Below, piece by piece: positions 1 through 47,566 of a DNA stretch of 64,000 nucleotides. Location of the stretch: contig CM035350.1 in assembly GCA_020137815.1 (NCBI GenBank), forward strand, positions 3,968,001 through 4,032,000. The letters are read 5' to 3'. Numbering within the stretch: position 1 is the stretch's first letter; each line of letters begins with the position of its first letter. The DNA comes from Hormiphora californensis. Taxonomy: Eukaryota > Animalia > Ctenophora. The position numbers and the translations under genes were made by a program. The notes beneath the pieces are model-generated. The model was not told the origin of the DNA. It did no database searches and saw only the letters and a program-made list of their open reading frames with translations.

Positions 1-709
1 GTTTGCCAACTCCCAAAAACATTTGGAACGATCGGAGAAGGTCGGGGCAACTGGCACACCCTAACTGCTAACGAATCCCCCCGGAAAGAACCTGTCCCTG
101 CGGTCAATTGAATCCCATCAGCAGAACTTGTGCTGTGCCGTAAATGCGGACAGTTAAAAAGCGGTTAGCGGACTATAAATTTATATTTTGTATTGTATTG
201 TATTGTATTGTATTGTAATTCAACTGCAAATTTTCGGGGGGGGGGGAGGCTCTGCCCCTTCACGCCCTGGTCTGCCCCTAAACGCCCTGGTCCGTTGTGG
301 GCCCCACCCCCGACACCACATGGGAGGACGCGGCTGAAAGCCGGACACCGCCCCTGCTTCCAATCCTTTGGGTTTGCAAATTAAGGTTTTAAGAATCCAT
401 TTCCCGGACCTGAGTTTTACCTTGAGACTTGTTTGTTTGTTTGTTTGTTTGTGATTGCTGCGTCTGGAGGATGACCTGCCCGAAAGTAGTAGAGGCCGCA
501 CCGAACACGCTTATTAGGCGCCCCAGCACGTCCTCCACTCCGCCGTAGCAAGGCCACCCACCAATCAGTTTATGCAGAGCATGTTACTTCAGACGCTCCA
601 GGAAGACCGTGGTCAACCACTGGCGACACCGAGCGGCGAGACCCGCACGGCGTCGACAGGGGTATCACACTACTCCTGGCCTAAATCAAATTCTAAGGTT
701 TGTGTTAAG

Positions 710-913
710 CTGGATCAGGTATCGTTTTGCCTTTGAGAGATTCTTGAGTTCGTTTGGTCTGGAACAAGGTAACGATTTGCCTTTGAGTGTCTTGAGCTTG
801 TTTTATCTGGAACAAGGTAACGTTTTGCCTTTGTGGTAGTCTTGAGATGTTTTGTTCTGGAACAAGGTAGCAAGTCTTGGACTTGGTCTGGATCAAGGTA
901 ACGTTTTCCATTG
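710..913. repeat. Degenerate tandem repeat, 5 units of ~30-50 bp (core CTGGAACAAGGTAACGTTTTGCCTTTG)
   Basis: Core recurs at ~710, 759, 807, 857 and 888; probably subterminal repeats of a non-autonomous element. Confidence 0.7.
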
Positions 914-1174
914 TGAGTACGGTCTGTCAACAGCGCTAGCTAAATGTACTAAGAATAAGATTTTAATCTCGCAATGGCAACGTTCATATTTTGGATACAA
1001 CTGTACATAACAACGGATTGACAAACTTACGACCTTGATGGATGTGATGGGTACCGTGACGTGTTGGTGATGAGATGTGAAGTGTGTCCATTTCCAGTAG
1101 AGACAAAGATAAACGAAAACGATCAAACACAAATAAGGGGTAGGACAGATTGTAGGGCTAATGGAATGTAAGAT

Positions 1175-2670
1175 CTCCGAAATAGCTCTGAAATTTTTCT
1201 AGAAAAATTCCAGTTCCGAAACAGCCTCCGAAATAGCTTTTGAAATAGCCCTTGAAATAGCTTCCGAAACAGCTCCTGAAATAGCCCCCGAAACAGCTTC
1301 CGAAACAGCTCCGGACGGGTGGCAGAAACGGCTCACACGGCCCATCCGGCAGCCGCACGACCACCACGAACACAAGGACACTCATATAAAAGCGAAAACC
1401 AGTGAACCCGACCAATTTCAATACGCCGAATCACGTGAGCAACTCTGGCAAGCGCTCAGATTCGAAGAAAGCGCCCCAACCGAGCACAATTGGGTGCAAT
1501 TGACCGGACCCACAACCCTTCTCCCGAAAACGCTACAAGTCAATGCGAGGGCACTTCTCCGACCAAATTCGATACGCCGAACCACTCAAGCAACTTTTCC
1601 CAGTCCCAAAAGGCGGGGAAATTGCCCCAATTGAGTCTGATTAGGTCTAATTGACCATAATTGCTCAATTAGGACACTTTCTTCACCTCTGAGGGCTCGG
1701 AAAAGCCGCTTACGTGATTCAGCGTACCAAAATTAGTCGGGAACACCGGCTCCCGCTCCTATACGAACGCTCTTGTGCTCACAATGATCGCGCAGCCGCC
1801 AGACGAGCCACACGAGCCGCCTCTACCACCCGGTCCGAAGCCGTTTCAAAAGCTATTTCAAAACTACTTCAAAAATAGGTACTTCAAAACTAGTTTGATC
1901 TGAATATAAAAGCGAAAACCAGTGTACCCGACCAATTCCAATACGCCGAATCACGCGAGCAACTCTGGCAAGCGCTCAGATGTGAAGAAAGCGCCCCAAT
2001 TGAGCACAATTGGGTGCAACCGACCGGACTCACAACCCCTCTCCCGAAAACGCTAGAAGTCAATGCGAGGGCACCCCTCCGACCAATTCCAATACGCCGA
2101 ATCACGCAAACAACCCCTCCAAGCCCCCAGAGGTGAAGAAAGTGTCCTAATTGAGCAATTATGGTCAATTAGACATAATCAGACTCAATTAGGGCAATTT
2201 CCCCGCCTCTTAGGGCCCGGAAAAGTTGCTCACGCGATTCAGCGTATCAAAGTTAGTCGGAAAAGCGCCCCCACACCAACTCATAGCGCCTCCAGGAGAA
2301 AAGTTGCAAGTCCGGCCAATCACACCCAACTACGCTCAACCAGGGCACCCTCCCCACATCCGAGCGCCCGCCAGAGCCGCTCACGCGACCCGACGCATCA
2401 AAATCAGTCGGGTACACTGGTTTTCGCTTTTATGTGAATGTCCTTGTGTTCACAATGACCGTGCAGCCGCCAGATGAGCCACACGAGCCGTCTCCACCAC
2501 CCGTCCAAAGCCGCTTCAAAAGCCATTTCAAAAGCCATTTCAAAAGCTATTTCAAAAGCCACTTCAAAAGCCATTTCAAAAGCCACTTCAAAAGCCACTT
2601 CAAAAGCCATTTCAAAACCAAAATCCCTCCAAAAAAATTTCAAAACTATCTCAAAACTACTTCAAAACTA
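1175..2670. repeat. Composite foldback (inverted-repeat) element, two partly duplicated units with 12-bp tandem arrays at the outer ends
   Basis: 1175-1600 is the imperfect reverse complement of ~2215-2656. 1385-1600 is directly repeated at 1904-2120. The 12-mers TTGAAATAGCTT / AAGCYAYTTCAA occur at 1215-1312 and 2508-2615. Confidence 0.9.
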
Positions 2671-2847
2671 GTTCGAACTTCGAATTACAAGCGATTCACA
2701 GGCCACCATGCATCTTTGCAATTGCTCCAGGGCGAGCCATTTCTCCCACCACAGATTGTCTCTGTAGTGGCGTGTTTCACAAAGTCCTCTACTTTGGGAC
2801 GGGCCAGGGTGGGGGAGGTGGGTGGGGTGGAGGGGTGGGTGGTGGCT

Positions 2848-3529
2848 AGTACAAGAAAACGAGCAGGGATTGAGTGCGTTAGAGATCAGATATTAGAGGT
2901 ACTGTGTTGAAAGATACAGAAAAGGGGCACCATTTGACAGAATGACTGAACCAAACTAGGCGATACGGTTGCAAAGTGATAGATTTAGGATTAAAGAGAG
3001 ACTTAGACGGGTGTATGTCAGTGTAACAGAGCATTCAAAATGAAGCAAATATGAAACTGCAAATGTATGAACTGTTTGTGAGAGAGTTTGGAGAATCCCG
3101 GTAATTCGTTTATGTCACACATCCGCAAAGTTATTCTGTATCCAGAATGCAGGATGATGCAGGGACAGTTTTAATGCTACTGAGACCACAGTTTTGAAGA
3201 TAGAAACTTGAAATTTTGGGAATTATTAGGGGATATAGTGGAGCATTGGCACAAGGAGTATGTTTTGAGACAGAGCAATATTATGGACGTGACCTGAGTA
3301 CAAGAAAACGAGCAGGGATTGAGTGCGTTAGAGATCAGATATTAGAGGTACTGTGCTGAAAGATACAGAAAAGGAGCACTATTTGACAGAATGACTGAAC
3401 CAAACTAGGCGATACGGTTGTAAAGTGATAGATTTAGGATTAAAGAGAGACTTAGACGGGTGTATGTCAGTGTAACAGAGCATTCAAAATGAAACAAATA
3501 TGAAACTGCAAATGTATGAACTGTTTGTG
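2848..3529 (+). repeat. Direct repeat pair of ~233 bp (2848-3080 and 3297-3529)
   Basis: Near-identical copies from AGTACAAGAAAACGAGCAGGG to AATGTATGAACTGTTTGTG, separated by 216 bp. Confidence 0.85.
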
Positions 3530-3934
3530 CGAATAGGGGGGTGGCAACTTCAAAAAATCCGACTTTTTTGGTGGATGATCCGATAAGAAGATTAACAGTA
3601 GACTGGAATTGCCAATTCCGAATTGGTAATGATAAGTTACCCCTCCGTGCAAGCTCCACTTGTACATCGTATTAACTATGATATATGAGTTATGACTGGT
3701 CCATTAGGGGTGACTTCGTAACGAAAGACTGGAACCTAATTAATTAATGATAAATAATGGCTGTACAATATGCAAACGCAGAAATTTGATATCAATATCA
3801 ATACCAATAATTACATTTGAAACTTGAAAGTTGCGGAAAAAAGCATACCAAAGTCCGACACTCAACACCAAACGCAGCATGACAACATAACAAAAAGGTC
3901 GTTCAACAACAAAACTCATTGATAAGGAAAATGT

Positions 3935-6900
3935 TCAATCTCGTCTTATAATCTCCTTCATTTCTATTTCAACAGGAACCACTTCACCAGGACGTACTGT
4001 AGATTTCTTCAACAACCCCACAAAAATCACAATATCATCGTAAAGAATCAGTATGGGGTTGATGATGGAATTGCAAGGCAGGAAGAAGATGGAGAAGTAC
4101 CGGTACATGTGAGAGAAGTCAAAGTACTCGGTGTAGTGCATTGCACAAACGATCATAAATGGAACCCAGGTGAAGATATCCGTGGCAACAAGCACTGATA
4201 TTTTTCGTTGAAGTTTCCTATTCCTTTTAATCAGTGCAACGTTTTTGTTTTCTCCTCCCACCGCCTCGCTAGATTTTAGTGTAACAATATTGATTACCAG
4301 ATAACATATTGCAATCGAAATAACACACAACAAGTTGCTAACCTGTACCGCTCCTATGTACCAAATCTGTGGATTATCGGTTCGGACAAAGAAGTTGAAG
4401 AGACAGATCCCACTGGTGGCATAAAAGCTCAGACTCTTCACTCTCGGAGAGGTATCGTTGTACATATCTCCAACAAGGTATCGCAATGTTTTCCAATCCA
4501 TCTCCCCACCATCGGAAACTGCCTGAAACCGACCGTAGTACCCGAGCAGAATTTTATAGTTTGCCTCCTTGTTAATTGAACCAACAAAGTACTTGTTGTT
4601 TTCATACACCACACTCCTCACAAAGAAATCTTCCAAATAAGGAATTACCGGAACAGCCGCAATAACACTCGCCAAAACTAATATGCCAAGTGTTGCAGAG
4701 GCAAGTTTTACCAGATATTTTCGGTTCAGATTAGCTTTAAAGGAAATTTCTGCACTCAATATACCTTTCATCCTTATGAAACTCAAGAGGGACATCGAGT
4801 ATAGAGAGATGAGCGATCCAATAGTGGCAAAAATTCCCAGAAAAGGACAGAGTGGCTTTGTTAGCCATTCGAACTGGGATTCACAGGTGCTCTTGTTGAA
4901 AAAAGTGTCTCCAATAGCCACACAGAGGAGAAACAAACCCTGCAAAAAGTCACCGAATGATATAACCAAAACAAATGCTTTGTTCGTTCTACCACGGTTC
5001 GTTTCTAGTTCAAAGAACTCATTGAAGCCTTGAACCAGGACAACAACGTTCAGAACCACTGCTACAATTCCGATGACCCATGCAGAAACTTTTAAAAAAA
5101 CATTCGGGAGAATCTTGACTGTAGTGGTACAATCCTCGTTGCATTCATCAGAAAAGTCCTGGCAGTCAAATATACCGTCACACCTTCTAGACTTTGCAAC
5201 AAACTCTTTCGTGTCTGTGCACTGAAAGTTATTTTCACATCTTATCTCATCACTCTGGTCACCGCAATCGTCCACAAGGTCGCATACTTTGGAGTAGGGT
5301 ACACATCGGAGGTTGGAACAACCAAATAAGTTGTTTGTGAATGTCCCATTGGGGCCTTGTACAACTCTAGTTAGCTGGTGGGCAGTATTAATTGTCAAGA
5401 ACCGTTCGGAATGAGTCGGGGCACACGACCCTTCCAGAAGAGGCTCCAGGGGGCAGGAAACAGTACAGACGCCTGTGCAGGATAGGTAGACGTACAGCTC
5501 TCCAAATATATCTTCACATGATTGTTGGTAGCTGACTGGCAAAATCAGTTGAGTGTTTTTGGTGTAAAGTGCCTTGGGGCCAATATAAAACTCCTTCTCT
5601 ATGCACGGTTCTATGTGCCGGGAAAGGCTCTTAAGTCCCGGGAGACAATATAATATATTCTTTTTGTATCCTAATTCAGTCGTCCAAACCTCAGCTCCCA
5701 GCTTATCGTTTCTCCTTGAAATGAGGCAGAGAATGTTATCACAGTAGTTTGTGTCAGTACATGCTACATCAGATCGCAGCAAGGCGGTAGGGTGGCCTGG
5801 ACATTTTAGCATAACCATCCCAAGGCAAGATGACGGACTGAGTGACTTGAGCTGTAATGTTCCAAGACCACACTTAGTGTACCACTTTCTATCTTTTTCG
5901 TCATCGCCATTTTCACAGTCCTCGATACCATCTCCGATCCATTCATTTGGAAATTGAATGGGAATCCTTTTTTCTGTCATGTACTTTCTTGTACACGAAA
6001 AATCGTCGGCCATATATGCATTTCCTATTTCATCTTCCCCGCCCTCACAGTCCAACTTACCATCGCACAACTGATGCTTGTGAATGGTGCATTGCCAGCC
6101 TGGTGTTCGACACATCTTATCAATGCCATCATCGCATAACTGCTTGTTTCGGGTTATCGATCCACAAACCATTCGCTTTGAGACTGTAGTCGGGAACCCA
6201 TTTACATTGCAAACCAGGGGAGAGCTAGCTGGTGTGTTGGGTTCACTCACCGAACAGTTCATCTGATCACGGTAGTTGCTGCAAACAAGTGATGATTTTG
6301 TGTTAGCATCGATAGGACCGCACATGTTTTCTTGGATGATTATTCGTTTGTTCGTCATGGTTACAAAATTAATGTTTTCGCAAATGGCAACCTGCTGTGA
6401 TATACACGATGCTTCATCTTTGTTATCGAAACAATGTTTAACCCCGTCGCATACGTATTTGGGTTGAATATAAACCATTTTCCGTTCTTTAGATCTACAA
6501 AAAATACCAAACTGCCGGCCGTAGCAGTTAGCCTCGTCGGAGCACGAAACACAGTCGCATTTTTCATCGCATGTGTTTCCGCGACTAACAAACTCCTCCA
6601 TTCTCCTCTTCCGGTTACTTAATACGCATCTGAAAGTTCGAGTGTTCAAGTCCATGTCACACTCATACTCGTCTACAGGGGTATTTTCTTTTGTGTTCCG
6701 ACAATCAGCAACGCCATCGCACCGAAAGAAATTGTTATTGCTGGCAGAATACCAATCTCGATCAAAAACGGATAGTAATTTCTGTTTTTTAGTAGATATT
6801 TCACATGGATACGTTAGACAAACTGCATGATTTTTCCTCAAGGCTGTCCCGTAGACGATGTCATTTTTAAAGTTGTTGATACCACACAACTGGTAGGACG

Positions 6901-7210
6901 TTGGATCATCTGGACATATCATGTTGGTCTTGGCATCTCCAAATTTCAATATGTTATAAATCTGGTAGAATAGGTTCCTCGATGGATCACTAAACGGACA
7001 CCGGTTCGCCTTTTTGTTCAACACGATGCATTGCTCGCGGAGGTAATCCTCATTATCAGCGATGATGGTGCATTTGGAAGGAGGGAAACTGGTGACGTTT
7101 TCCCACATGTCAGTTAGACTGATCCCCATCCAAGGGGTCCAAGTCAGCATTTGGGCCTTCATTGGACAAACCAGAAAGATAACGGACAAGACTATTATAG
7201 TGGGCAACAT
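3935..7210 (-). CDS. Intronless LDLa-repeat class-A GPCR (GRL101/LGR-type 7TM, no LRRs), ~1091 aa
   Basis: ATG at 7210 with a signal peptide (MLPTIIVLSVIFLVCPMKA). Many LDLa motifs (CDGVKHCFDNKDE, CDGKLDCEGGEDE, CDLVDDCGDQSDE, CDGIFDCQDFSDE). Seven hydrophobic helices with LGR-like motifs (LNVVVL, SFGDFLQG, FEWLTKPLC, TDIFTWVPF, NSIINPIL). Confidence 0.92.
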   Translation of the reverse strand: MLPTIIVLSVIFLVCPMKAQMLTWTPWMGISLTDMWENVTSFPPSKCTIIADNEDYLREQCIVLNKKANRCPFSDPSRNLFYQIYNILKFGDAKTNMICPDDPTSYQLCGINNFKNDIVYGTALRKNHAVCLTYPCEISTKKQKLLSVFDRDWYSASNNNFFRCDGVADCRNTKENTPVDEYECDMDLNTRTFRCVLSNRKRRMEEFVSRGNTCDEKCDCVSCSDEANCYGRQFGIFCRSKERKMVYIQPKYVCDGVKHCFDNKDEASCISQQVAICENINFVTMTNKRIIIQENMCGPIDANTKSSLVCSNYRDQMNCSVSEPNTPASSPLVCNVNGFPTTVSKRMVCGSITRNKQLCDDGIDKMCRTPGWQCTIHKHQLCDGKLDCEGGEDEIGNAYMADDFSCTRKYMTEKRIPIQFPNEWIGDGIEDCENGDDEKDRKWYTKCGLGTLQLKSLSPSSCLGMVMLKCPGHPTALLRSDVACTDTNYCDNILCLISRRNDKLGAEVWTTELGYKKNILYCLPGLKSLSRHIEPCIEKEFYIGPKALYTKNTQLILPVSYQQSCEDIFGELYVYLSCTGVCTVSCPLEPLLEGSCAPTHSERFLTINTAHQLTRVVQGPNGTFTNNLFGCSNLRCVPYSKVCDLVDDCGDQSDEIRCENNFQCTDTKEFVAKSRRCDGIFDCQDFSDECNEDCTTTVKILPNVFLKVSAWVIGIVAVVLNVVVLVQGFNEFFELETNRGRTNKAFVLVISFGDFLQGLFLLCVAIGDTFFNKSTCESQFEWLTKPLCPFLGIFATIGSLISLYSMSLLSFIRMKGILSAEISFKANLNRKYLVKLASATLGILVLASVIAAVPVIPYLEDFFVRSVVYENNKYFVGSINKEANYKILLGYYGRFQAVSDGGEMDWKTLRYLVGDMYNDTSPRVKSLSFYATSGICLFNFFVRTDNPQIWYIGAVQVSNLLCVISIAICYLVINIVTLKSSEAVGGENKNVALIKRNRKLQRKISVLVATDIFTWVPFMIVCAMHYTEYFDFSHMYRYFSIFFLPCNSIINPILILYDDIVIFVGLLKKSTVRPGEVVPVEIEMKEIIRRD

Positions 7211-7298
7211 AATCAATGCAGTTACGCAACCTTGAGTATCAAAAACGAAGTGTGTCTAATTTCGCGTTGTGGAACCATTTATAAAAGTAACGCTACTT

Positions 7299-10174: not shown

Positions 10175-12202
10175 GAGCAAGCCAGCTAGGGCCAACTAGT
10201 TTTGCAATGGATGGGGGAATATTTTATTGTGTATGGGGGAATTGCAAATGGAAGAATACAATGACATTATTGCAGATGTACTAATTCTACATTCTTTTCC
10301 AGAAGTAGCTGGAAGTTAGACGAGAGATACAAAAGAAGGGATGCAAGGGAGCACTTGGCGGAACGTTTATCCGCCTACATAACTTATAAAATGCTGATGG
10401 TGAACCTGGAGTTTATTCTCTTTAATGGTCCCCGTGCACCTTTCAAGTGAGTTGGTGGCTGATCTATGGGTTGCGCAAGGAGAGAGAGAGAGAGAAGGTC
10501 GAGTAAGCCAACTAGGGGCCAACTAATTTTGCAATGGATGGGGGAATATTTTATTGTGTATGGGGGAATTGCAAATGGAAGAATACAATGACATTGTTGC
10601 AGATGTACTAATTCTTCATTCTTTTCCAGAAGTAGCTGGAAGTTAGACGAGAGATACAAAAGAAGGGATGCAAGGGAGCACTTGGCGGAACGTTTATCCG
10701 CCTACATAACTTATCTAGCTGCGGTGAACTTTCTGCTCATGCCAATTCTTTTTGTTTGGCAGCTCATCTTTCAGATTGTTCACTATGCTGAGGTGAGAGA
10801 ATTATAGGACAGTGAAGTTGCAGGGGGATCAGTCACATGAGTGTGTGTGGCACATTCCCGGTCACACTTTTAAAGTGTTATGGTGTGTCATGTCTGTAGC
10901 GCGCGGCGTCATCCCTACAGCTGCGAGGTATCGCACAGCAGTAGGTCAATGCGACGCGCACACAATGCGCGTAGTCACGTGACTCGCCAATGTTTCTAAA
11001 TTTACCCTCCCCCACGTGACGTGAAGTGCTGTGGTGGTATAACATTGGTATAAACCTGTATATATTCCCCCTCCAGCTGGTAAAACGGGAACCCGGAATT
11101 CTCGGGGTAAGGATGTGGTCCTTGTATGCTCGGTATTTTCTTCGCCACTACAATGAACTATGTCACGAGTTCGATGCCCGGCTAAAGAGGGCCTACATTC
11201 CTGCGAACAAGTTTATGAATCTCTTCACTTCTCCCATGCTAGTTATCATTGCCAAGTAAGGAATGTTTCGACTGTGTGTTAAACAAGTGATATATATGTT
11301 TAACAAATTTAACCTGGGAAACTCATAAAAACTCTCCTCTAGGAACGTTGGATTTTTCGCTGGAGCGATTCTACTCGTTTTGGTATCTCTAACTCTAATA
11401 AATGAGGAACTACTATTTGCTGACCACATTCCCCTGGCTATAACCCTTCTGGGTATCACTGTGTCGGTCTGCAAAGCCCTCATCCCTGATGCGGTAAGAA
11501 TGTTGTTACATGGGGTGTGGAGCTTTATAAGTGTTGCTTGAGTAGCGGTAACGTGTAGTAACGCACCCAACTCTAGTATAGCCACGCATGGGGTAGGCAG
11601 GAAGGGTCACTTCTTTTCACTCTATATTAGAGACGTTCAAATCCAACTAATAGCATCCCTCCCCTACACAAATCCCCCTACTTCTCCCCAATATATGCTG
11701 CTCACACCCCCCCTCATTGTAGAACCAAGTATTTTGTCCTGATGTGCTGATGAAGGAGGTGTTACTTCACACCCACTACCAGCCAGATAACTGGAACAAC
11801 GCTGCCCAACTACCCCACGTCAGGGAGGAGTTTGGGCAGATGTTCCTCTTCAAAGGTGAGTTGTAATGGGTGTTCCACGGGGTTGTAATGGGTGTTCCAC
11901 GGGGTTGTAATGGGTGTTTCACGGGGTTGTAATGGGTGTTTCACGGGGTTGTAATGGGTGTTTCTGGGCCGGGGCTGTGATGGGTATTCCTAGTCGAGCA
12001 TGCCACCATTTATATTGTACAGTTATTATTTGTAAGTTGTTAAAAAAAGAGTATATTGGGAGTATTTGTGTGTTTCCTCTGTCTCTCTGGCACAGTGAGA
12101 TGGTGGGCTGACACACGGCAGTCAATAATAAACTGTCATACACTGCATCACCAACATTTATACTGGCAAGAAGTCTGTCTGTCTGTCTGTCTGTCTGTCT
12201 GG

Positions 12203-12252
<50 letters not shown>

Positions 12253-12267
12253 TTCTGTCTGTCTGCC

Positions 12268-12322
<55 letters not shown>

Positions 12323-15300
12323 TTCCTCAAACTATCTCATTATATTTCCAGGTGTATACTTGGCAGAAGAGCTGATTGCACCCCTTATCACCCCTTTCAT
12401 CCTATACTTCAATGTTCGCCATAGATCTCTGGATTTTGTTGATTTCCTACGAAACTACACCGTCAGCGTCGTAGGTATAACGATCTCTCATCCCCCTTTA
12501 GTATCCAGAAAACTGCACTGATTGGGATGGAAACTTCAGCAACTCTCCCAGATGGCCACTATTGTTGCCATAACTATAGTCGAATTTTTTATTTAAGCGA
12601 CGGACCGTCACGCATTCAAAGAGGTCGTGCGGCATCGTATTTGCCCGTGATAATCGAGATCGAGTTCCTGGCAATCTTAAGACTTGAACCCGAAAGCGTT
12701 GGAAAGATAATTTCAAGACCTTTCCAACGCAACCAAAATCAATTTTTTATCTAATCAGGAACCGGGGATATGAGCGAAAAGGTTTCTCGAATTGTCACAC
12801 GCAAATACAACGCCACGCGACTTCTTTGAATGCACGGCGGCCTGTCGCTTAAATTAAGAATTCAACTTTAGTAACTACTGGCATTACTAACTACTACTAA
12901 ATATGACATCCTACAGGTGTTGGAGATGTGTGCTCCTTCTCCCAAATGGATATAAAGAAACACGGTAACCCTGATTGGATGGCATTCGGAATGACTAATG
13001 GAACCCCCGTAGACCAGGCTGAGCACGGCAAGACGGAGTTGTCCCTTATCAACTTTAGTATCAGGAACCCAGACTGGAAGCCCAAAGGACAGCGAGGCCA
13101 TGTATATCAGCACTATTCCGGGCATTAGGTGAGTAGTAGAGTTATCCATGATGATTTTCAATGATTCTTCCCAAGTGCTCATGGATATATCGGGGACCAA
13201 AACTTTCTACAAAGTACCAATGTAGTTTAATATTTAACACGTGATCTCTCTCTCTCTCTCGCAGCTAAACAAGACAGTGAGGGGATGGGTGGCAGCTTGA
13301 TATCTCAACAACATGGCATGGCCAGATCCCTCATCCAGGGTTCTAGCCCTATGCTGGCTTCCATGAACCTCCCACACTTCCAGCCCACAGTGCCCATCAG
13401 CGCCCCATCTTCAAGCGAAACTGTAACTGGGGACGATCAGCCCCCTTCCTCTAACCTCTACACAGACCAGATTGCAACTTCATCTAACCACTACAGCGAC
13501 CACCCCCACCACCAGAGCGAATACCAGATAGAGGAGGGCGATCAGGATTCAGAGGAGGGACCTCCGACCCTGTTCGGTGGAGAGGGACCTCCGACCCTGT
13601 TCGGTGGACCCGAGGAAATGTTAACAAGTGTTAGCAAACAAAAGTACATTTTTGATGACCAATATAGCCAGATGGAGCAGAGTTATAGGGAATCAGGACG
13701 TAGACCCGTCACCCAGAGCATGACCGTCCCTGAGACCAGTAACCGGGGTGGATCGTTGCATGACGTCATAATGACGTCATCATCTCACCAGCCTAACTCA
13801 ATGGATTTGATGAGCATGAGCACGGTCGATGCGTCACTATTCATGTCGGCACATATGGAACACTCACAGTGGGCTGCCCGATCAAGTCTTAGCACAGGTA
13901 ACATCTCGAATTTGGTATCCCGTAAATACTAGTAATTATTAACTCCAATACTTCGAAGACGAAGCAGTTCTTCAAGAACTCTAAAACTAGTCAGTCGTGT
14001 AGATTCCTGATTCCCAATTATTCTCCCCACCACGCCCTTTCTCTTTACAGGAGATGTAAAGTGGACCGGTGTTAGAAAGGAGTACAGAGAGATGGCCCGA
14101 TCAACTGATCTCGGATCGAGTGCTCTCTTCCTCCATTCGGTAAGTGCATGGTTTCACTCAACAACTCAACAACCCTTTCTTTCTCAAAAGCAACTTCATT
14201 TCGGGCTATTATCCCGCCCAGACTTCTAGCTACTGTTATACAAGGTTTCCCCCGTCCTTTATCCTTACGAGGACAATTATAAGGCTCCGAGAGTGAATAG
14301 CTGCAAATTTGAGCAGCCGTGGGAAATTCAGAAAGCCTCCAGTGTGTGTCCTTCTTTGGTCATAACTAAAATTCTTTAACCCTAAGGAATTAGGTCACAA
14401 TTATACTGTGACATGGAATATACATTCTAGAAAATTCCACCTATTCCCCCTCTCAGCTCCACTCTTCTAACCCCATCTTCCCCCTCTCAGCTCCACTCTC
14501 CTAACCCCATCTTCCCCCTCTCAGCTCCACTCTCCTAACCCCATCTTCCCCCTCTCAGCTCCACTCTCCTAACCCCATCTTCCCCCTCTCAGCTCCACTC
14601 TCCTAACCCCATCTTCCCCCTCTCAGCTCCACTCTCCTAACCCCATCTTCCCCCTCTCAGCTCCACTATCCTAACCCCATCTTCCACCTCTCAGCTCCAC
14701 TCTCCTAACCCCATCTTCCCCCTCTCAGCTCCACTCTCCTAACCCCATCTTCCCCCTCTCAGCTCCACTCTCCTAACCCCATCTTCCCCCTCTCAGCTCC
14801 ACTCTCCTAACCCCATCTTCCCCCTCTCAGCTTCACTCTCCTAACCCCATCTTCCCCCTCTCAGCTCCACTATCCTAACCCCATCTCCCCCTCTCAGCTC
14901 CACTCTCCTAACCCCATCTTCCCCCTCTGCTCCACTCTCCTAACCCCATCGTCCCCCTCTCAGCTCCACTCTCTTAACCCCATCTTCCCCCTCTCAGCTC
15001 CACTCTCCTAACCCCATCTTCCCCCTCTCAGCTCCACTCTCCTAACCCCATCTTCCCCCTCTCAGCTCCACTCTCCTAACCCCATCTTCCCCCTCTCAGC
15101 TCCACTCTCCTAACCCCATCTTCCCCCTCTCAGCTCCACTCTCCTAACCCCATCTTCCCCCTCTCAGCTCCACTCTCCTAACCCCATCTTCCCCCTCTCA
15201 GCTCCACTCTCCTAACCCCATCTTCCCCCTCTCAGCTCCACTCTCCTAACCCCATCTTCCCCCTCTCAGCTCCACTCTCCTAACCCCATCTTCCCCCTCT

Positions 15301-18273
15301 CAGCTCCACTCTCCTAACCCCATCTTCCCCCTCTCAGCTCCACTCTCCTAACCCCATCTTCCCCCTCTCAGCTCCACTCTCCTAACCCCATCTTCCCCCT
15401 CTCAGCTCCACTCTCCTAACCCCATCTTCCCCCTCTCAGCTCCACTCTCCTAACCCCATCTTCCCCCTCTCAGCTCCACTCTCCTAACCCCATCTTCCCC
15501 CTCTCAGCTCCACTCTCCTAACCCCATCTTCCCCCTCTCAGCTCCACTCTCCTAACCCCATCTTCCCCCTCTCAGCTCCACTTTCCTAACCCCATCTTCC
15601 CCCTCTCAGTTCAGCTCTTCTAACCCCATCTTCCACCTCTCAGCTCCACTCTCCTAACCCCATCTTCCCCTCTCAGCTCCACTCTCCTAACCCCATCTTC
15701 CCCCTCTCAGCTCCACTCTCCTAACCCCATCTTCCCCCTCTCAGCTCCACTCTCCTAACCCCATCTTCCCCCTCTCAGCTCCACTCTCCTAACCCCATCT
15801 TCCCCCTCTCAGCTCCACTCTCCTAACCCCATCTTCCCCCTCTCAGCTCCACTCTCCTAACCCCATCTTCCCCCTCTCAGCTCCACTCTCCTAACCCCAT
15901 CTTCCCCCTCTCAGCTCCACTCTCCTAACCCCATCTTCCCCCTCTCAGCTCCACTCTCCTAACCCCATCTTCCCCCTCTCAGCTCCACTCTCCTAACCCC
16001 ATCTTCCCCCTCTCAGCTCCACTCTCCTAACCCCATCTTCCCCCTCTCAGCTCCACTCTCCTAACCCCATCTTCCCCCTCTCAGCTCCACTCTCCTAACC
16101 CCATCTTCCCCCTCTCAGCTCCACTCTCCTAACCCCATCTTCCCCCTCTCAGCTCCACTCTCCTAACCCCATCTTCCCCCTCTCAGCTCCACTCTCCTAA
16201 CCCCATCTTCCCCCTCTCAGCTCCACTCTCCTAACCCCATCTTCCCCCTCTCAGCTCCACTCTCCTAACCCCATCTTCCCCCTCTCAGCTCCACTCTCCT
16301 AACCCCATCTTCCCCCTCTCAGCTCCACTCTCCTAACCCCATCTTCCCCCTCTCAGCTCCACTCTCCTAACCCCATCTTCCCCCTCTCAGCTCCACTCTC
16401 CTAACCCCATCTTCCCCCTCTCAGCTCCACTCTCCTAACCCCATCTTCCCCCTCTCAGCTCCACTCTCCTAACCCCATCTTCCCCCTCTCAGCTCCACTC
16501 TCCTAACCCCATCTTCCCCCTCTCAGCTCCACTCTCCTAACCCCATCTTCCCCCTCTCAGCTCCACTCTCCTAACCCCATCTTCCCCCTCTCAGCTCCAC
16601 TCTCCTAACCCCATCTTCCCCCTCTCAGCTCCACTCTCCTAACCCCATCTTCCCCCTCTCAGCTCCACTCTCCTAACCCCATCTTCCCCCTCTCAGCTCC
16701 ACTCTCCTAACCCCATCTTCCCCCTCTCAGCTCCACTCTCCTAACCCCATCTTCCCCCTCTCAGCTCCACTCTCCTAACCCCATCTTCCCCCTCTCAGCT
16801 CCACTCTCCTAACCCCATCTTCCCCCTCTCAGCTCCACTCTCCTAACCCCATCTTCCCCCTCTCAGCTCCACTCTCCTAACCCCATCTTCCCCCTCTCAG
16901 CTCCACTCTCCTAACCCCATCTTCCCCCTCTCAGCTCCACTCTCCTAACCCCATCTTCCCCCTCTCAGCTCCACTCTCCTAACCCCATCTTCCCCCTCTC
17001 AGCTCCACTTTCCTAACCACATCTTCCCCCTCTCAGCTCCACTCTCCTAACCCCATCTTCCCCCTCTCAGCTCCACTCTCCTAACCCCGTCTTCCACCTC
17101 TCAGCTCCACTCTCCTAACCCCATCTTCCACCTCTCAGCTCCACTCTCCTAACCCCATCTTCCCCCTCTCAGCTCCACTCTCCTAACCCCATCTTCCCCC
17201 TCTCAGCTCCACTCTCCTAACCCCATCTTCCCCCTCTCAGCTCCACTTTCCTAACCCCATCTTCCCCCTCTCAGCTCCACTCTCCTAACCCCATCTTCCC
17301 CCTCTCAGCTCCACTCTCCTAACCCCGTCTTCCCCCTCTCAGCTCCAGTCTCATAACCCCATCTTCCCCCTCTCAGCTCCACTCTCCTAACCCCGTCTTC
17401 CCCCTCTCAGCTCCACTCTCCTAACCCCATCTTCCCCCTCTCAGCTCCACTCTCCTAACCCCATCTTCCCCCTCTCAGCTCCACTCTCCTAACCCCATCT
17501 TCCACCTCTCAGCTCCACTCTCCTAACCCCATCTTCCCCCTCTCAGCTCCACTCTCCTAACCCCATCTTCCCCCTCTCAGCTCCACTCTCCTAACCCCAT
17601 CTTCCCCCTCTCAGCTCCACTCTCCTAACCCCATCTTCCCCCTCTCAGCTCCACTCTCCTAACCCCATCTTCCCCCTCTCAGCTCCACTCTCCTAACCCC
17701 ATCTTCCCCATCTCAGCTCCACTCTCCTAACCCCATCTTCCCCCTCTCAGCTCCACTCTCCTAACCCCATCTTCCCCCTCTCAGCTCCACTCTCCTAACC
17801 CCAGTCTTCCCCCTCTCAGCTCCACTCTCATAACCCCATCTTCCCCCTCTCAGCTCCACTCTCCTAACCCCAGTCTTCCCCATCTCAGCTCCACTCTCCT
17901 AACCCCATCTTCCCCCTCTCAGCTCCACTCTCCTAACCCCATCTTCCCCCTCTCAGCTCCACTCTCCTAACCCCATCTTCCCCCTCTCAGCTCCACTCTC
18001 CTAACCCCGTCTTCCCCCTCTCAGCTCCACTCTCCTAACCCCATCTTCCCCCTCTCAGCTCCACTCTCCTAACCCCATCTTCCCCCTCTCAGCTCCACTC
18101 TCCTAACCCCGTCTTCCCCCTCTCAGCTCCACTCTCGACTAAAGCAGCAGGAAGAGAGTCCCCAAGATATGATGACGCGATCACTCCACGGCCAGATTCA
18201 CCAAAACAGTGGCAGTGGAAGTCACATGAGCAAATCTTATCCCAACAACACACATCCTAACACGTGTACGTAA
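8639..18273 (+). CDS. ATG9: Autophagy-related protein 9 (lipid scramblase), multi-exon
   Basis: Exons ~8639-8841, 8930-9046, 9225-9360, 9490-9592, 9919-10090, [10303-10446], 10630-10792, 11077-11255, 11343-11493, 11723-11855, 12352-12474, 12917-13128, 13265-13897, 14051-14139, 18127-18273. ATG9 motifs: NLDDFFTRTYNYHRNNGFWC, CVDYD, KREPGILGVRMWSLYARYFLRHYNELCHEF, GVGDVCSFSQMDIKKHGNPDW, KTELSLINF. Apparent frameshift at 13084-13118; the final exon is uncertain (another acceptor at ~18467). Confidence 0.93.
10031..10713 (+). repeat. Tandem duplication (~340 bp) of exon end + intron + next exon start within ATG9
   Basis: 10031-10386 is repeated at 10387-10713; the copies differ in (GA)n length and a few substitutions. 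Confidence 0.9.
11860..11963. repeat. ~22-bp minisatellite x5 immediately after a splice donor
   Basis: GTTGTAATGGGTGTTYCACGGG repeated. Confidence 0.85.
12174..12320. repeat. (TCTG)n microsatellite
   Basis: Read directly; intronic in ATG9. Confidence 0.95.
12573..12872. mobile_element. Degenerate MITE with ~90-bp imperfect TIRs
   Basis: ACTATAGTCGAATTTTTTATTTAAGCGAC... versus ...GTCGCTTAAATTAAGAATTCAACTTTAGT. Confidence 0.6.
14445..18136 (+). repeat. 34-bp minisatellite, ~108 copies; unit = branch point + polypyrimidine tract + CAG + first 10 nt of the next ATG9 exon
   Basis: Unit CCTAACCCCATCTTCCCCCTCTCAG|CTCCACTCT; the last copy runs into the exon CTCCACTCTCGACTAAAGCAGCAG (LHSRLKQQ). 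Confidence 0.95.
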
Positions 18274-32800: not shown

Positions 32801-35800
32801 ACCGGGGGTTACCATGGTAACTGATGTTATGTTCTAACCCTAGCTAGGCAAGGTAACTAGAGAGTTTCAAAAACAGCTGATATATGGTTGTTAGAGACAC
32901 GAATATCTAGTTGTCATGGTGCACTTACCCTTGATCCAGGCTGTCTTGCCACTTGCGGGAACCAGGCTCATTCCAGAGTTGATTACATACGTCTTGGTCT
33001 TCTTGGTGTATGTCATACCAGTACACTTCTTGTTCTTGTTGCAAGCCCCTGCTGCCTTGGAGGCGGTCTTGTAGGTCTTCTTACCGATCGGTTTGGATAG
33101 TTTGTAGCTGGTCTTGGAGGTATAGTACACTTCTGTGAGAGATAGGAGGTTAGTGGGTGGGGGAGATAGGAGGTTAGTGGGTGGGGGAGATAGGAAGTTA
33201 GTGGGTGGGGGAGATGGGAGGTTAAAGTGAGGCGTGATGTCATAATGTACGCCAACATATTTTCATACTCGCTCCCAAAAGTATCAAAAGTAGAGGCCCC
33301 CACTGCGCCATACATGACTTGATTCATTCTATCCTTCTTCTCTCCCTCCCATCTCTCTCCATAATTACTTGGTCTCTCTCTCTCTATCTCTCCCTCCCTC
33401 CCCCGTTTCTCTCTCCATCTCCGTCTCGTGATGATGTAATTCGTATGCATCACAGTTACCATACACATAGAAAGCTATCGCAAGTCACACAGCTCACAAC
33501 TTTCAATATGTGATACCCTAGATGTGTTCATTCTCATAGCTCTAGCATAGCTTTCGAATCGAAGCTCTATTCGGATAACTTTGCTCTGATTTTCAGCAGA
33601 AGATATGTGCTGAAGCACGTGTCTATCCCCTTACCTTTGAGTAGTTGGAATTTCCCGCCTCTCACATAGGCAGTCATACCGCTTGCCTTGCTGAGCGTAT
33701 CGTCATTATTAGTCCGGTACTTCTTAGATCCTTCCGAGGTCACTCCCTATGGATATATTCTGTTGAAAGGAATTTATTACGTGCTCTTGTAAGCTTTGTT
33801 TTACGCTGGTATCGTCACAGTTTGATAAAATTATTTGACTTGTAATATTCAAGAAATGCGTGCACCCTGTTTCACTCTTAATTCGTGTACTCTGCTTTTA
33901 CTGTTAGGTACTAGACTGACGTTATATGAAACCGTTAGGAATTCACCGAGATAAGCTGAAAAACACGTACCCTTTTTCTCTCTCAGGTATATATTTAGGG
34001 CCCATGTGACAAGCGATACGATAGCCTCCTACTGCAGCAACTCACTTTATTATGTTGCTCCTTCTACTCTGTCTGACAGGCAACCTCGTATATGGTGGGG
34101 AATACTACCTTGGTGCGGACACTACCCCTAACATTGGTAAGGGATTCTACCTGCCTCAAACCTCAATTTACAGACTCAGTTTAGGTGGGAAGAGCCTGTT
34201 TAAAAACCTCCCCGACCGATGCTACAAATCCAGATCGGAGGGTGGGAAAACTAAAGCGGAAATCCTGTTTTTCGAGACCCCAGAATCCTTCTACCGATAT
34301 CTCGGTGCGGAGTCAGGGCTGATACATGAGGACGTGGTGGCACACACCTTCTACCGGACCCTCCTGGATGCCTCTCAGAGCATTGATCCCAACCTTGCGA
34401 TTAGGGGAGCTGGGATAGAAATCAGTAAACAGACCACGGGGTATGATATAGATCCGGATTGTCTGTCCAGTGAAGCGCTAGATCCCCAGCTCGAGAAAGA
34501 CCTGGCATCCCTTCCAGATGTGGTTGAGAAACCCGAGATGAGGGGAAGTTGGGCTGCATACGAGGTATTCCTCAAGAAATATGGCACACACTACATTAGG
34601 GGTGTGTTCTATGGGAACAAAATTGTACATTTCGTGTTTGGGAAACGCTCCAAGGGGTACAGTGACATTGAATACGGTGCTGCCGCGTGCAAGAACCTGA
34701 GAAATGCAAGTCTCTCATTTTGTAAACAATATTGGGATTCGGATTATGAGAAAGTGACAACCATGGAAACGGGAAGTTTCTATGAGGTACGTGGAGGGAC
34801 CACCCAGGCCCGGGCTAGAATGACTGCAGGGTACCCCAGTGCAGAGATGCTATATGATTTCATCCAGGGGGAGACGACTGGAGACCAAGATGTTAATTTA
34901 TATCTGGAGCCAGTATCTAGCCTCCTGAAGAAGAGATATCTGGGCAGTAAACATTTCACTAAGGTCCTGAATCTCCTCCAGTATTACGATGGATTTGTTG
35001 CCCTGGGATGCTATAAGGAGAATATCCATGGTGTACCGAGTCAGAGGTTCAGGTTGGTTAGTTCAGAACACGGTATCCCCGAGTACTCGTGCGAACAAGC
35101 CAAAACAGGATGCCGGTCAGATGATGATTGCCACCTAGCTCCAGCCTCTTTCTGGACGGCCTGTTACTGCTACGGGCAATCCTGTATTGTAAAGTCCAGT
35201 CTGACAATCCCTGAGTATGGCTCTCATGTGACCCGTGGGGTGAGGAGAGAGGCAACGGGATCCTACTACGAGGGAGAGAATCTATCATGCCACTATCAGG
35301 TCGGACCTAGCTGTTACTGTGGACAGGACCATAAAAACAAGTGGGACAGTATTTGGCCACCATCTACCTCTGACATATCACGGGATCTGGAGACATACAG
35401 AATGTTGTACACCAATATGGATAATAATGAACTCAATGGAGCGAGAAGGGGTGTACTAAATTGGACATTGGGTTTATTATGGATCGTTGCGATCTGGTAT
35501 TGGTATCGCTAGAAGTAATTTCCAATTTTTCATGTTTTGTGTGTTTGTCAGATGTTTGTTCAGATGTTTTTGTGCTTGAAATTAGTTTTTGAAATTAGTA
35601 TTTGGAAGAGTTTTCAAACTCAAAAAAGTGTTCAACATGTTCACATGAAGTCTCATATCATTTACAATCACATACCTGACATGTTGCGGAGGATGCACAT
35701 GCCTTGGTTGCCTTGGAAACGGATTTGTAGATAGTACTACTGTCATAACCTGTCATCCGGTAACCATCCTTCATAGCCCACAGGTTAGAATCACTGGTCA

Positions 35801-44800: not shown

Positions 44801-47566
44801 ATCCCTCCTTGGTTACTCCCTTACAGGCGGCCTTAGAGGCACACACCTTGAGGGCGGTCGTCTTGCTCGTGTAGACCTTCTTGTTGTAGTATCCCTGGAG
44901 TTGTTTGTCCTTGAGGTAGGTCCACGTGTAGCCCTTGTAGGAGATGGACTTGCCAGACAGGATGAAGGCAGAGTTGCCCTTGGCAGGGTGAGGTGTACCG
45001 CCCTTAGCGAGGCGGTATTTCTTCCCATTGAATGTCACTCCGTTACACTTGGAGGATGAGGCAGCACAGGCTTTTAAGGCACTATCCTTGCTTCCATACT
45101 TCTTTCCATAGGCCCCCTTCAGCTTGAAGGGGTGATGGTAGGTCCAAGCGTACCCTCCGCTGGCAAGCGTCATCTTGGACTTCTTAACAAGCTTGTCAGT
45201 TCTCAGGAAGGTGATGGTTGTGCTCTTTGGGGTGAGTTTCACGTCCTTGTAAAGGTAGTACTCCTTGCTACCCTCCTTGACAACACCCTGACAGGTCTTC
45301 TGAGCTGAAGCACAGGCCGTCAGAGCAGATGCCAGGTCGGTGTATTTCTTGTTAGTTGCCCTCTTTGTTAGTGTGTATCGAGGCATCTTCAGCCAGTTGA
45401 ATCCTGTGGAAATACATGGTAGTCATAGGAACGAACATTGGTTAATTTACTAACAGATAGCATAGAAAATTCGGCAGGTCGGAAGAATCTCGACACCGAA
45501 ATATATATGTATTTCAAATACATATGTATTTCAAATACACATGTCTATTTCAACTGAAATATATATGTATTTCAAATATATATGTATTTCAAATGCTAAT
45601 GAGGGGGATGGACATGTGATACGATTCTGGAACGCCTTATTAGCAGTGGGAGACAATACGGGATATGAACCATGTGATTCGGGGAAGCTTATTAGCGGTA
45701 GGAGACGATACGAGATATGGAACATGATTCGGGGAAGCCGATCAAGAGTGTTAGACGATATGAGACACGATTCGGGGAAGGTTTCTATCGCGTTCCATCC
45801 CTATGACCCTATCCACATCGATGTGTCTCTCTGTCTGTCTCTCTTTCTTTCGAATGAGAAAAGACAGTTTCGTCGCTTTCCTAGCAGGTAGATGTAGGCG
45901 GTAAGCGGACTCTAGTGCTAAAATCACGAAAAGCGAACTCGAGATTTCGGCCGCTAGGCCGGAAACGAGAGTTTGCTGTGCCTTTATACTCGTTTAGAAG
46001 TGTTAGGGCTGTTATTTGGGTTCGAGGTTAGGGTTTAGTGTAAAGGTTAGGGCTAGATAAAGAGTCCTCCTTGGGTTTATATAGAGTCCGTTAGCACTAG
46101 AGTCCGCCTACCAGATGTAGGCACCTAGCCTCTCGGTCGTTTCTTGCAGATTGTCGGTTTAGCTAGAGAAACCGGATTGGAAGGAGGTGGCGGCATTGAA
46201 GGACTAATGGTCAGGGAGGTCAAGAAGATATCATCCATTCAATTCGCATGGCTAAACCATGTCTTTTCTCATATCATTCGGTAAAAAGTTATGGGTATCT
46301 CTCTTTCTCCATGTTTCTCTTTCTCCCTTCGAGAAAGTGAGAGAGAAAGAGGGAGATAGAGAAAGAAAGAGAAAGAAAGAGAGACACAGAGATGTGGATT
46401 GGGTCATAGACTTCTCACATATCGCTTATCAGTTTTGTTGCTCCAGCTCGCTGCTGATCGCACCCTTTGTTCAACTGATCCTGCTATTGTACTAAAAACT
46501 TGTTCAACACGGAGATGGATCGTACCTTCTCCAGCTGGCGCCATGGAGGTCCAGGTGGAAAGGCTTGTACTGCGGACTTCCTCAGGTTAGAGACATCTAT
46601 CATTGCTACACTACGGCGTGCTGCGGGGTACTCTGAACCCAACAAAGAGGGAGGTGAGTTTGATCCGAACAAGTTGACGAACAACTACTTGAAAGGGCTA
46701 GATACCAACAAGAAGCTGAAGATAATCGCTGACATGGCTGGTCTTCTCTGGTACCGGTCACTGCCTCTCTCACAAATGACCAGGAAGCAGATAGAGGAGA
46801 AGAAAGAGGATACAAAACCTGCTATCAGTTGCCCGGCTAATGATAAGTTATCAGATAACATGGAAGTCGATTTTGAAGTCCTAGACGATCTGAAGACCAC
46901 CAGGGACCGTCTTGACGCCACCAAGGATGAACTGTTGGAGCGGGACCGCAAAATCATCGCGTTACAGGACGAGGTTAGTGCCCTCAAAGACTCTATCATC
47001 GCCTACAAGGATTCCCTGCTAGAAAAGAGTATCAGCGCTGTACAAACGGTGGTCAAGGAGGAGATTATGAGCTACTCCACTGTTTTGGAGACTGCCGCCA
47101 CCGCTGTAAAGGAGAGCTGTGTATCTGCTCTCGCCCCCAGCAAGATCCGGACAGCCATCGCCAGTGCCTCTGAAGATCGTACCGCCAACTTGATTGTTTA
47201 TGGACTGCCTGAAACAACGGATAGCAACGATTGTGACAAGATAAAGGACGTGTTCCAGGAACTTGGTGAAGCTCCAGTTGTTTCGAAAGTTGAGAGACTT
47301 GGGAGGAGTGGTGAGCAAGTACGGCCTGTTCGGGTATTTATGAGGACCAGAGAGGCAGCAAGGACAGTTCTGGGGAAGTCTGCTCAGCTCAAAGACTCAG
47401 ACTCTTATCAGACAGTTTATATAGCTCCAGACAGGACTGTTGAGGAGCGAGCTGAGCGTAGAGTTTTGGTAGCGAGATTGAGAGAGAGAAGGGAACTTGA
47501 ACCAGAGAAGACTTGGCGTATTAGAAGGGGTTCAGTTGTTGAAGAGGCCCAGGAAGAGTGAGAGAG

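What the first reader, a model, noticed from the sequence alone, without database searches (positions are those of the whole stretch)
1175..2656. Foldback element whose arm mismatches are almost all G-U wobbles on one strand: genomic A-to-G hypermutation or a hairpin-RNA gene
Seen: aligning left arms to the reverse complement of right arms gives dozens of mismatches, nearly all of one type (left C/A versus T/G). Example: TCCGAAACAGCTCCGGACGGGTGGCAGAAACGGCTCACAC versus TTTGAAGCGGCTTTGGACGGGTGGTGGAGACGGCTCGTGT. On the + strand these are C-A mismatches; on the - strand they are G-U pairs, so only the minus-strand RNA folds into a ~430-bp nearly fully paired stem. Polarity: the 12-mers vary from TTGAAATAGCTT mostly by T>C, and 1745-1782 differs from its paralogue 2415-2452 by clustered T>C (GGTTTTCGCTTTTAT > GGCTCCCGCTCCTAT), i.e. 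A>G runs on the minus strand. Neutral decay would split transitions between strands and add transversions, as in the inner arms at 51285-51830. Known: ADAR hyper-edits both arms of long dsRNA, and Drosophila hpRNAs are G-U rich. Inference: edited dsRNA written back into the genome, a hairpin-directed adenine deaminase, or selection on an endo-siRNA hairpin.
Basis: partly seen in the sequence, partly recalled or inferred. Interest (0 to 1): 0.88.

Follow-up and report, generated by a model that had tools for sequence, protein, structure and literature searches.

The report
RNA-editing marks fixed in transposon DNA
In a comb-jelly-like genome, one copy of a common palindromic repeat has about half of the adenines on one strand changed to guanine in its paired arms but not its centre, the same in the DNA of two samples, which likely means that RNA edited by the enzyme ADAR was copied back into inherited DNA.

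Summary
Arms 1175-1743 and 2076-2656 differ at 151 of 569 columns, and 142 of these are G-U pairs on the minus strand. Paralogous arms and family contigs give the direction: T>C on plus, that is A>G on minus. 175 of 382 arm adenines are changed, against 1 of 46 in the two centres. A 5' G is avoided (0.23 against 0.42-0.62; p=6e-5), as with ADAR. DNA contigs from two samples carry the same changes, so this is neither an artefact nor live editing. The locus is two head-to-tail copies of a high-copy foldback-like repeat with opposite centre orientation. Their right arms were edited independently. The centres would pair in a 512-bp helix in one joined RNA, yet are unedited, so the two hairpins were likely edited apart and joined later. 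Best reading: ADAR hyper-edited hairpin RNA reverse-transcribed into the germline (0.78), possibly by a template jump between two RNAs. Selection for a hairpin gene is unlikely. Closest precedents are ADAR-hypermutated retroviral proviruses and plant mitochondrial retroprocessing. Ten literature searches found no inherited case in a DNA-transposon-like repeat. The enzyme, the RT step and transcription are inferred.

The parts
1175..2674 (-). A>G hypermutated tract (T>C on plus); in sample S2 it goes on at least 18 nt further left
   Evidence: 175 of 382 called arm sites changed; S2 loose end
1145..1153 (.). candidate 9-bp target-site duplication, left copy
   Evidence: same 9-mer at 2751-2759; chance about 0.03 in the searched flanks; one contig joins 1152 to 2754
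1154..1174 (.). 21 nt standing where sample S2 has the continuation of the left arm; probably a deletion with filler in the window's allele
   Evidence: X5 and X6 contigs have 76-78 other letters before 1175; no listed contig bridges this junction
1175..1313 (+). copy 1, left array of 12-mers, 29 of 61 sites changed
1314..1597 (+). copy 1, left arm: arm 1314-1407, 39-nt module 1408-1446, spacer X 1447-1558, module 1559-1597; 34 of 70 sites changed
1598..1701 (.). copy 1 centre, an imperfect palindrome; inner part 1614-1690 has 1 of 26 sites changed
1702..1898 (-). copy 1, right arm: recombinant module 1702-1740 (151-nt spacer plus one module lost), arm 1741-1835 (18 of 31 changed), 12-mers ending at the position equal to 2676
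1899..1903 (.). 5-nt filler at the head-to-tail junction of the two copies
   Evidence: junction bridged by contigs of X1, X3 and X5
1904..2117 (+). copy 2, truncated left arm, paralogous to 1384-1597; 29 of 55 sites changed
2118..2221 (.). copy 2 centre, inverted relative to copy 1; inner part 2129-2205 has 0 of 20 sites changed
2222..2676 (-). copy 2, right arm: two modules, spacer, arm and 12-mer array; 56 of 135 sites changed in 2222-2656; last visible change at 2674
2677..2750 (-). likely outer terminal inverted repeat, apparently unedited
   Evidence: S2 left arm mirrors 2675-2686 with 0 of 8 sites changed; 2687-2750 has no genuine mirror in view; multi-copy by depth
2751..2759 (.). candidate 9-bp target-site duplication, right copy
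   Evidence: 4-6 contigs per run (X1, X5, X3) reach 2754 from other sequence

Best explanation
This is one compound copy of a high-copy palindromic, foldback-like repeat whose arms carry about 46% A>G changes on one strand, fixed in DNA, likely because hairpin RNA from the repeat was hyper-edited by ADAR and then likely reverse-transcribed into the germline genome. Shown: the direction, extent and context of the changes, the spared centres, independent changes in the two right arms, and presence in the DNA of two samples. Inferred: (1) each repeat transcript folded on itself and ADAR edited both arms to near saturation, sparing the interrupted terminal stem and loop; (2) a reverse transcriptase supplied in trans put C opposite inosine, giving T>C on the plus (cDNA) strand; (3) two separately edited molecules, read in opposite directions through the repeat, were joined head to tail, most simply by a template jump from the 5' end of one RNA (1898, equal to 2676) into the next, with a 5-nt filler (about even odds); (4) the cDNA replaced the inside of a genomic copy by homology, which would leave the outer repeat and the candidate 9-bp duplication unedited; (5) ordinary mutation and deletions followed. 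It is most likely a rare accident with no present function.
For: Polarity: in 1384-1597 the patterns expected from T>C on plus number 16+13, those from G>A on plus 3+2. Family contigs read T where the locus has C at 18 of the 31 shown rows inside the element, and again in 1150-1405. Context: 5' U 50/80, C 43/78, A 67/159, G 15/65 (p=6e-5); 3' G highest at 43/78; UAG 16/22, GAA 5/32; neighbouring As co-edited, 0.55 vs 0.31. This matches 5' G avoidance and 3' G favour, and ctenophores have ADAR1 and ADAR2 (PMC9989829; PMC4365171). The 46% level matches the 'nearly 50%' reported for a retroviral inverted repeat (PMC12925331). Centres 1/46 vs arms 175/382, p=3e-10. In the fold of the joined pre-edit sequence all 46 centre sites lie in a 512-bp helix; P(<=1 edited)=2e-11. 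Right arms are independent: both 7, neither 13, one only 21 of 41, P=0.81. X1 contigs match five pieces with 0 differences; X5 (other sample, other study) differs at 2/275, 5/272, 3/111 and 1/188. No other T>C-bearing copy appeared over 1150-1405 in four runs.
Against: No RNA holder was laid, so transcription and editing in vivo are unseen. No poly(A) or other target-primed hallmark is visible, and no RT was identified. 5' C exceeds 5' A here, whereas PMC9989829 reports U and A favoured; the 3' G effect is weak (p=0.07). 5 of the 31 shown family rows are A>G, meaning G>A at this locus (1337, 1420, 1654, 2091, 2110); 12-13 A>G places per run were counted over 850-3000 and 65 rows were not shown. 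The centre is not a plain loop: folded with copy 1 alone, 11 of 26 centre sites fall in a long interrupted helix. The two left arms share more edits than trinucleotide rates predict (37 of 53 concordant vs 28.6 expected; p=0.014). The unedited outer repeat rests on 0 of 8 sites (p=0.007) and a cut table. The run kinds are guessed by the tool ('DNA?').
Confidence: 0.78

Rival explanations
1. Adenines were deaminated in DNA itself, by ADAR on an RNA:DNA hybrid or by an unknown enzyme acting on extruded hairpin DNA; replication of one strand then fixed them. No reverse transcription is needed.
For: One-strand polarity is also expected after replication of a deaminated strand (inference). ADARs can edit DNA in DNA:RNA hybrids at A-C mismatches in model substrates (PMC12925331). 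No RT hallmark is seen. The 5' order U>C>A>G is not the textbook ADAR order.
Against: A hybrid with a full transcript, or a single-strand deaminase, would hit the centres, which are spared (1/46). In the joined DNA the centres would pair with each other. Near-saturating deamination of DNA would have to escape base repair (established knowledge, recalled).
Confidence: 0.12
2. A hairpin-RNA (endo-siRNA) gene under selection keeps RNA pairing through G-U pairs while the DNA palindrome decays.
For: The minus strand still folds almost perfectly, and the locus is present in two samples.
Against: Selection for G-U would accept C>U as well as A>G; the changes are 29 to 5 one way. It predicts neither 5' G avoidance nor clustering. 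Transitions of the edit type outnumber other differences between same-orientation arms 11:3 and 16:2, which suggests a burst. One arm is truncated and one spacer deleted.
Confidence: 0.05
3. The hairpin rode inside a larger retroelement transcript (the flanking repeat) and came back by ordinary retrotransposition, as in hypermutated proviruses.
For: Both flanks are multi-copy repeats, and this route has precedent.
Against: One RNA holding the whole compound would pair the two centres and the outer repeat, yet both look unedited. No tRNA, Rfam family or RT frame lies near the locus. This is a variant of the best explanation in its last step only.
Confidence: 0.04
4. Assembly or sequencing artefact, for example edited cDNA mixed into the assembly.
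For: The run kinds are guessed. The window's left junction at 1154-1174 is not bridged by a listed contig.
Against: Contigs match with 0 differences over 145-313 nt in X1, X3 and X4, and at 97-99% in a second sample. Independent editing could not repeat the same pattern.
Confidence: 0.01

Closest known systems
ADAR-hypermutated retroviral proviruses (avian leukosis / Rous-associated virus inverted repeat; BLV 3' LTR)
   Same: A>G clusters in DNA copied from RNA; nearly 50% of adenines in an inverted repeat (PMC12925331, passages); integrated BLV copies (PMC8025556, passages).
   Different: Those are infections of somatic or cultured cells by elements with their own RT. Here a non-coding palindromic repeat with no RT carries the marks, and they are shared by two samples.
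APOBEC DNA editing of endogenous retroelements
   Same: Deaminase clusters fixed in genomic repeat copies (PMC2873906, passages).
   Different: That is G>A from C deamination of cDNA, without structure dependence. Here it is A>G confined to paired arms.
Retroprocessing in plant mitochondria
   Same: Edited RNA is reverse-transcribed and converts part of the genomic copy (PMC4987113, abstract).
   Different: C-to-U editing of organelle mRNAs with intron loss; here A-to-I-type hyper-editing of a nuclear repeat in an animal.
Foldback / Mutator-like elements (FB, Tm1, Phantom)
   Same: Composite long inverted repeats with internal tandem units and a candidate 9-bp duplication (PMC3169594, passages).
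   Different: No transposase was seen and the duplication rests on one locus. I found no such hypermutation in the passages read.
Drosophila hpRNA genes
   Same: A long inverted repeat that folds as RNA (search listing only; G-U richness is recalled, not checked).
   Different: Here the G-U pairs arise one way from a multi-copy repeat with ADAR context; no expression or small RNA shown.

Membership tests
ADAR hyper-editing product | Clustered A>G changes on one strand | tested here: met
   142 of 151 mismatches; polarity 29 to 5; family reads T
ADAR hyper-editing product | G depleted at the 5' neighbour | tested here: met
   15/65 vs 160/317, p=6e-5
ADAR hyper-editing product | G favoured at the 3' neighbour; U and A favoured at the 5' neighbour | tested here: inconclusive
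   3' G highest but p=0.07; 5' U highest but C above A
ADAR hyper-editing product | Confined to long duplex, both arms hit | tested here: met
   arms 175/382, centres 1/46; the centre is an interrupted stem, not a plain loop
ADAR hyper-editing product | Inosine in RNA, dependence on ADAR | not testable with these tools
   no RNA holder listed
Retro-copy by target-primed reverse transcription | Poly(A) or simple-repeat 3' tail with a duplication at the cDNA ends | tested here: not met
   no T-run at the left end in the window; S2 continues as inverted repeat; 48 S2 letters unseen
Foldback / Mutator-like non-autonomous DNA transposon | Long composite inverted repeats with internal tandem units | tested here: met
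Foldback / Mutator-like non-autonomous DNA transposon | Dispersed multi-copy family | tested here: met
   761-1285 contigs laid per DNA run; summed depth up to 2.9e5 against 35-200 for the locus-specific contigs (not a copy number)
Foldback / Mutator-like non-autonomous DNA transposon | 8-10 bp target-site duplication at both termini | tested here: inconclusive
   9-mer at 1145-1153 and 2751-2759, chance 0.03; left terminus missing in the window
Foldback / Mutator-like non-autonomous DNA transposon | Cognate MULE transposase with matching ends | not testable with these tools
   no whole genome held
hpRNA / endo-siRNA gene | Stranded transcript processed to siRNAs | not testable with these tools
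   no RNA holder listed
hpRNA / endo-siRNA gene | Pairing kept by changes of both kinds (C>U and A>G, compensatory) | tested here: not met
   one-way changes
APOBEC-edited retroelement | G>A on the element's sense strand as the dominant change | tested here: not met
   minor class only: 5 of 34 polarised sites, 5 of 31 shown family rows

The most novel reading that the evidence does not exclude
Ctenophore germlines routinely write ADAR-hyper-edited hairpin RNA back over palindromic DNA transposons by RNA-templated repair. This would be an RNA-directed, RIP-like mutagenesis that destroys DNA palindromes and transposase-binding repeats, leaving many one-strand G-U relics across the genome.
Probability: 0.1. 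Interest if true: 0.95.

Novelty: new variant of a known kind. Interest (0 to 1): 0.8.

Why it matters
If right, it is a heritable genomic fossil of A-to-I editing: an RNA modification made permanent in an animal germline, in a repeat that should never pass through RNA to be copied. It shows a route by which non-retro repeat RNA templates DNA. It also gives a cheap signature for any animal assembly: inverted repeats with one-strand G-U excess, 5' G avoidance and spared centres. That would make the long-debated question of how often edited RNA feeds back into inherited DNA countable.

Tried and rejected
No whole genome is held, so no genome-wide family alignment was possible. Two degenerate-motif scans of metagenome contigs found 0 matches. 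Rfam and ARAGORN on 1-4200 found nothing. Earlier findings: none in three look-ups. I first read the X1 loose end before 1206 and the X4 stop at 1172 as further left ends. I rejected this: the X1 joint is AATT next to AATT (sites at 1206 and 2720) and X4 stops at a GATC, which look like restriction-ligation chimeras (recalled library chemistry). They are dropped as evidence for the terminus and for an unedited outer repeat. The count of A at sites where two partners read G (34 of 134) cannot separate G>A here from two edited partners and was not used. A mitochondrial-type strand bias would give both C>T and A>G and would not spare the centre; rejected. A single RNA of the joined compound is rejected. 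Double copying of one edited RNA is rejected on the independent right arms and the inverted centre. The atlas look-up of the 46479-47561 frame did not complete.

Full report
Setting. The window is eukaryotic and animal-like: microsatellites, an LDLa plus 7TM receptor frame, an ATG9 piece and a MACPF frame. The only species-named relative of the MACPF protein is from Mnemiopsis leidyi at 43% identity, one of 2 hits, so I treat the organism as a ctenophore, by inference. No whole genome is held.

Observation. Arm 1175-1743 against the reverse complement of 2076-2656 gives 418 identical, 142 G-U-on-minus, 3 G-U-on-plus and 6 transversion columns of 569. The minus strand folds at -1055 kcal/mol and the plus at -647. 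Six other inverted repeats tested, and the 6 found by a transition-blind scan, show no such bias.

Anatomy. The locus is two head-to-tail copies of one palindromic unit: 12-mer array, arm, 39-nt module, spacer X, module, centre, and the mirror of these. Copy 1 (1175-1898) has lost the right spacer; its right module resembles the centre-side module up to 1722 and the arm-side module from 1732, as expected from a slip between direct repeats. Copy 2 (1904-2676) lacks most of its left arm and has its centre inverted. Copy 1 ends at the position equal to 2676, then come 5 filler bases, then copy 2. The same 9-mer lies at 1145-1153 and 2751-2759 (chance about 0.03), and one contig joins 1152 to 2754. 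With composite inverted repeats this resembles Foldback/Mutator-like elements (PMC3169594, passages), but the duplication is only a candidate.

Direction. Two processes give G-U on the minus strand: A>G or C>U. With two copies in each orientation they can be told apart. In 1384-1597 the A>G patterns number 16+13 and the C>U patterns 3+2; a further 17+27 discordant columns cannot be polarised this way. The family settles it: 761-1285 contigs lay on 850-3000 per DNA run, and of the 31 shown rows inside the element 18 have T where the locus has C, 5 have G for A, 3 have C for T and 5 are transversions; 65 rows were not shown. Over 1150-1405 the family contigs again read T at 1336, 1338, 1342 and 1354.

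Signature. I called a site when all opposite-orientation partners read T; other sites were dropped. 175 of 382 arm sites and 1 of 46 inner-centre sites are changed (p=3e-10). Rates by 5' neighbour on the minus strand are U 0.62, C 0.55, A 0.42, G 0.23 (G vs rest p=6e-5); by 3' neighbour G is highest at 0.55 (p=0.07); runs of A are co-edited. 5' G avoidance across metazoans, weaker 3' G favour, ADAR1 and ADAR2 in the ctenophore, and repeats as main targets are stated in PMC9989829 (passages) and PMC4365171 (passages). C above A departs from the reported order.

It is DNA and inherited. X1 contigs match 1206-1411, 1712-1933, 2008-2152, 2236-2548 and 2588-2749 with no difference; X3 matches 2236-2548; X5, from another sample and study, differs at 2 of 275, 5 of 272, 3 of 111 and 1 of 188 letters. 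X6 and X4 agree with their samples over 1175-1385. In S2 the left arm goes on beyond 1175: the 30 letters shown mirror 2657-2686 with 7 more differences, all of the G-U type, and the outer 12 are identical. So the event predates the split of these alleles, and ordinary changes followed: 1337 is G in S2 and in the family, A in the window. No other copy with T>C changes showed over 1150-1405 in four runs; contigs can miss rare copies.

Two molecules, not one. Restoring the called sites in memory and folding the joined unit puts all 46 centre sites in a 512-bp helix, yet 1 is changed (P=2e-11). Folded alone, copy 2 has 0 of 20 centre sites in a long helix; copy 1 has 11 of 26 in an interrupted one, so the local model fits well but not perfectly. 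Both right arms are edited although only one full left arm remains, and their edits are independent (P=0.81); the left arms share somewhat more than expected (p=0.014). Spacer X of copy 1 is edited (16 of 32) though its partner is gone, so that deletion came after editing.

Mechanism. Shown: the pattern. Inferred: ADAR on self-folded repeat RNA, then reverse transcription. The plus strand is the cDNA sense, with C opposite inosine. Copy 1 ending where visible editing of the right repeat also ends (2674-2676) suggests a common RNA 5' end; a jump from one RNA's 5' end to another RNA without homology is a described property of R2-type RT (PMC12203849, passages). That step I hold at about even odds, since the editing boundary rests on 0 of 8 sites. 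With no poly(A) and an apparently unedited outer repeat, insertion by homology into an existing copy fits better than target-primed insertion; the analogy is partial retroprocessing in plant mitochondria (PMC4987113, abstract). DNA-level deamination (0.12) and selection (0.05) remain as rivals.

Novelty. ADAR marks in DNA are known from proviruses (PMC12925331; PMC8025556; passages), and APOBEC marks from endogenous retroelements (PMC2873906, passages). Ten searches (listings only, apart from the eight papers named) showed no inherited ADAR-type hypermutation of a DNA-transposon-like repeat; one search returned 0. The library lacks most subscription papers, including the large-scale DNA-editing surveys I recall, and I read no supplements, so a prior mention is possible.

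Verdict. Real, not ordinary; a new variant of a known kind; interest 0.8.

Noticed in passing
window 45465-45804 and 47951-48290; frame 46479-47561 (+): A 340-bp inverted repeat, 98% complementary, brackets a 360-aa frame with no Pfam match that by recalled motifs looks like a LINE ORF1-type protein followed by an (AG)n tract; possibly a captured or nested mobile element inside the giant gene.
   Followed up: partly
window about 30000-63700 (-): A very large multi-exon gene made of dozens of short Cys-containing, Lys-rich repeats; one 661-aa frame had no Pfam match.
   Followed up: partly
window 34025-35512 (+): Intronless MACPF-domain gene on the opposite strand within the span of the giant repeat gene; relatives at 94% (EukProt) and 43% (Mnemiopsis).
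   Followed up: partly
window 3935-7255 (-): Intronless 1106-aa receptor frame with LDLa repeats and a rhodopsin-type 7TM domain.
   Followed up: partly
window 12132-13932 (+): ATG9 exon pieces.
   Followed up: partly
window 1172-1175 and 1897-1900: Both internal junctions of the locus sit on a GATC, 2 of the 4 such sites in 1100-2800; unexplained, perhaps chance.
   Followed up: partly
window 14444-18136: 3.7-kb minisatellite of 109 copies of a 34-mer, 98% alike, with extreme C skew.
   Followed up: no
window 2848-3083 and 3297-3532: 236-bp direct duplication, 97% identical, in the right flank; this flank is very high-copy.
   Followed up: no
window 50853-51951: Nested inverted repeat: outer arms 98% complementary, inner arms 72% with balanced changes; used as control.
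   Followed up: partly
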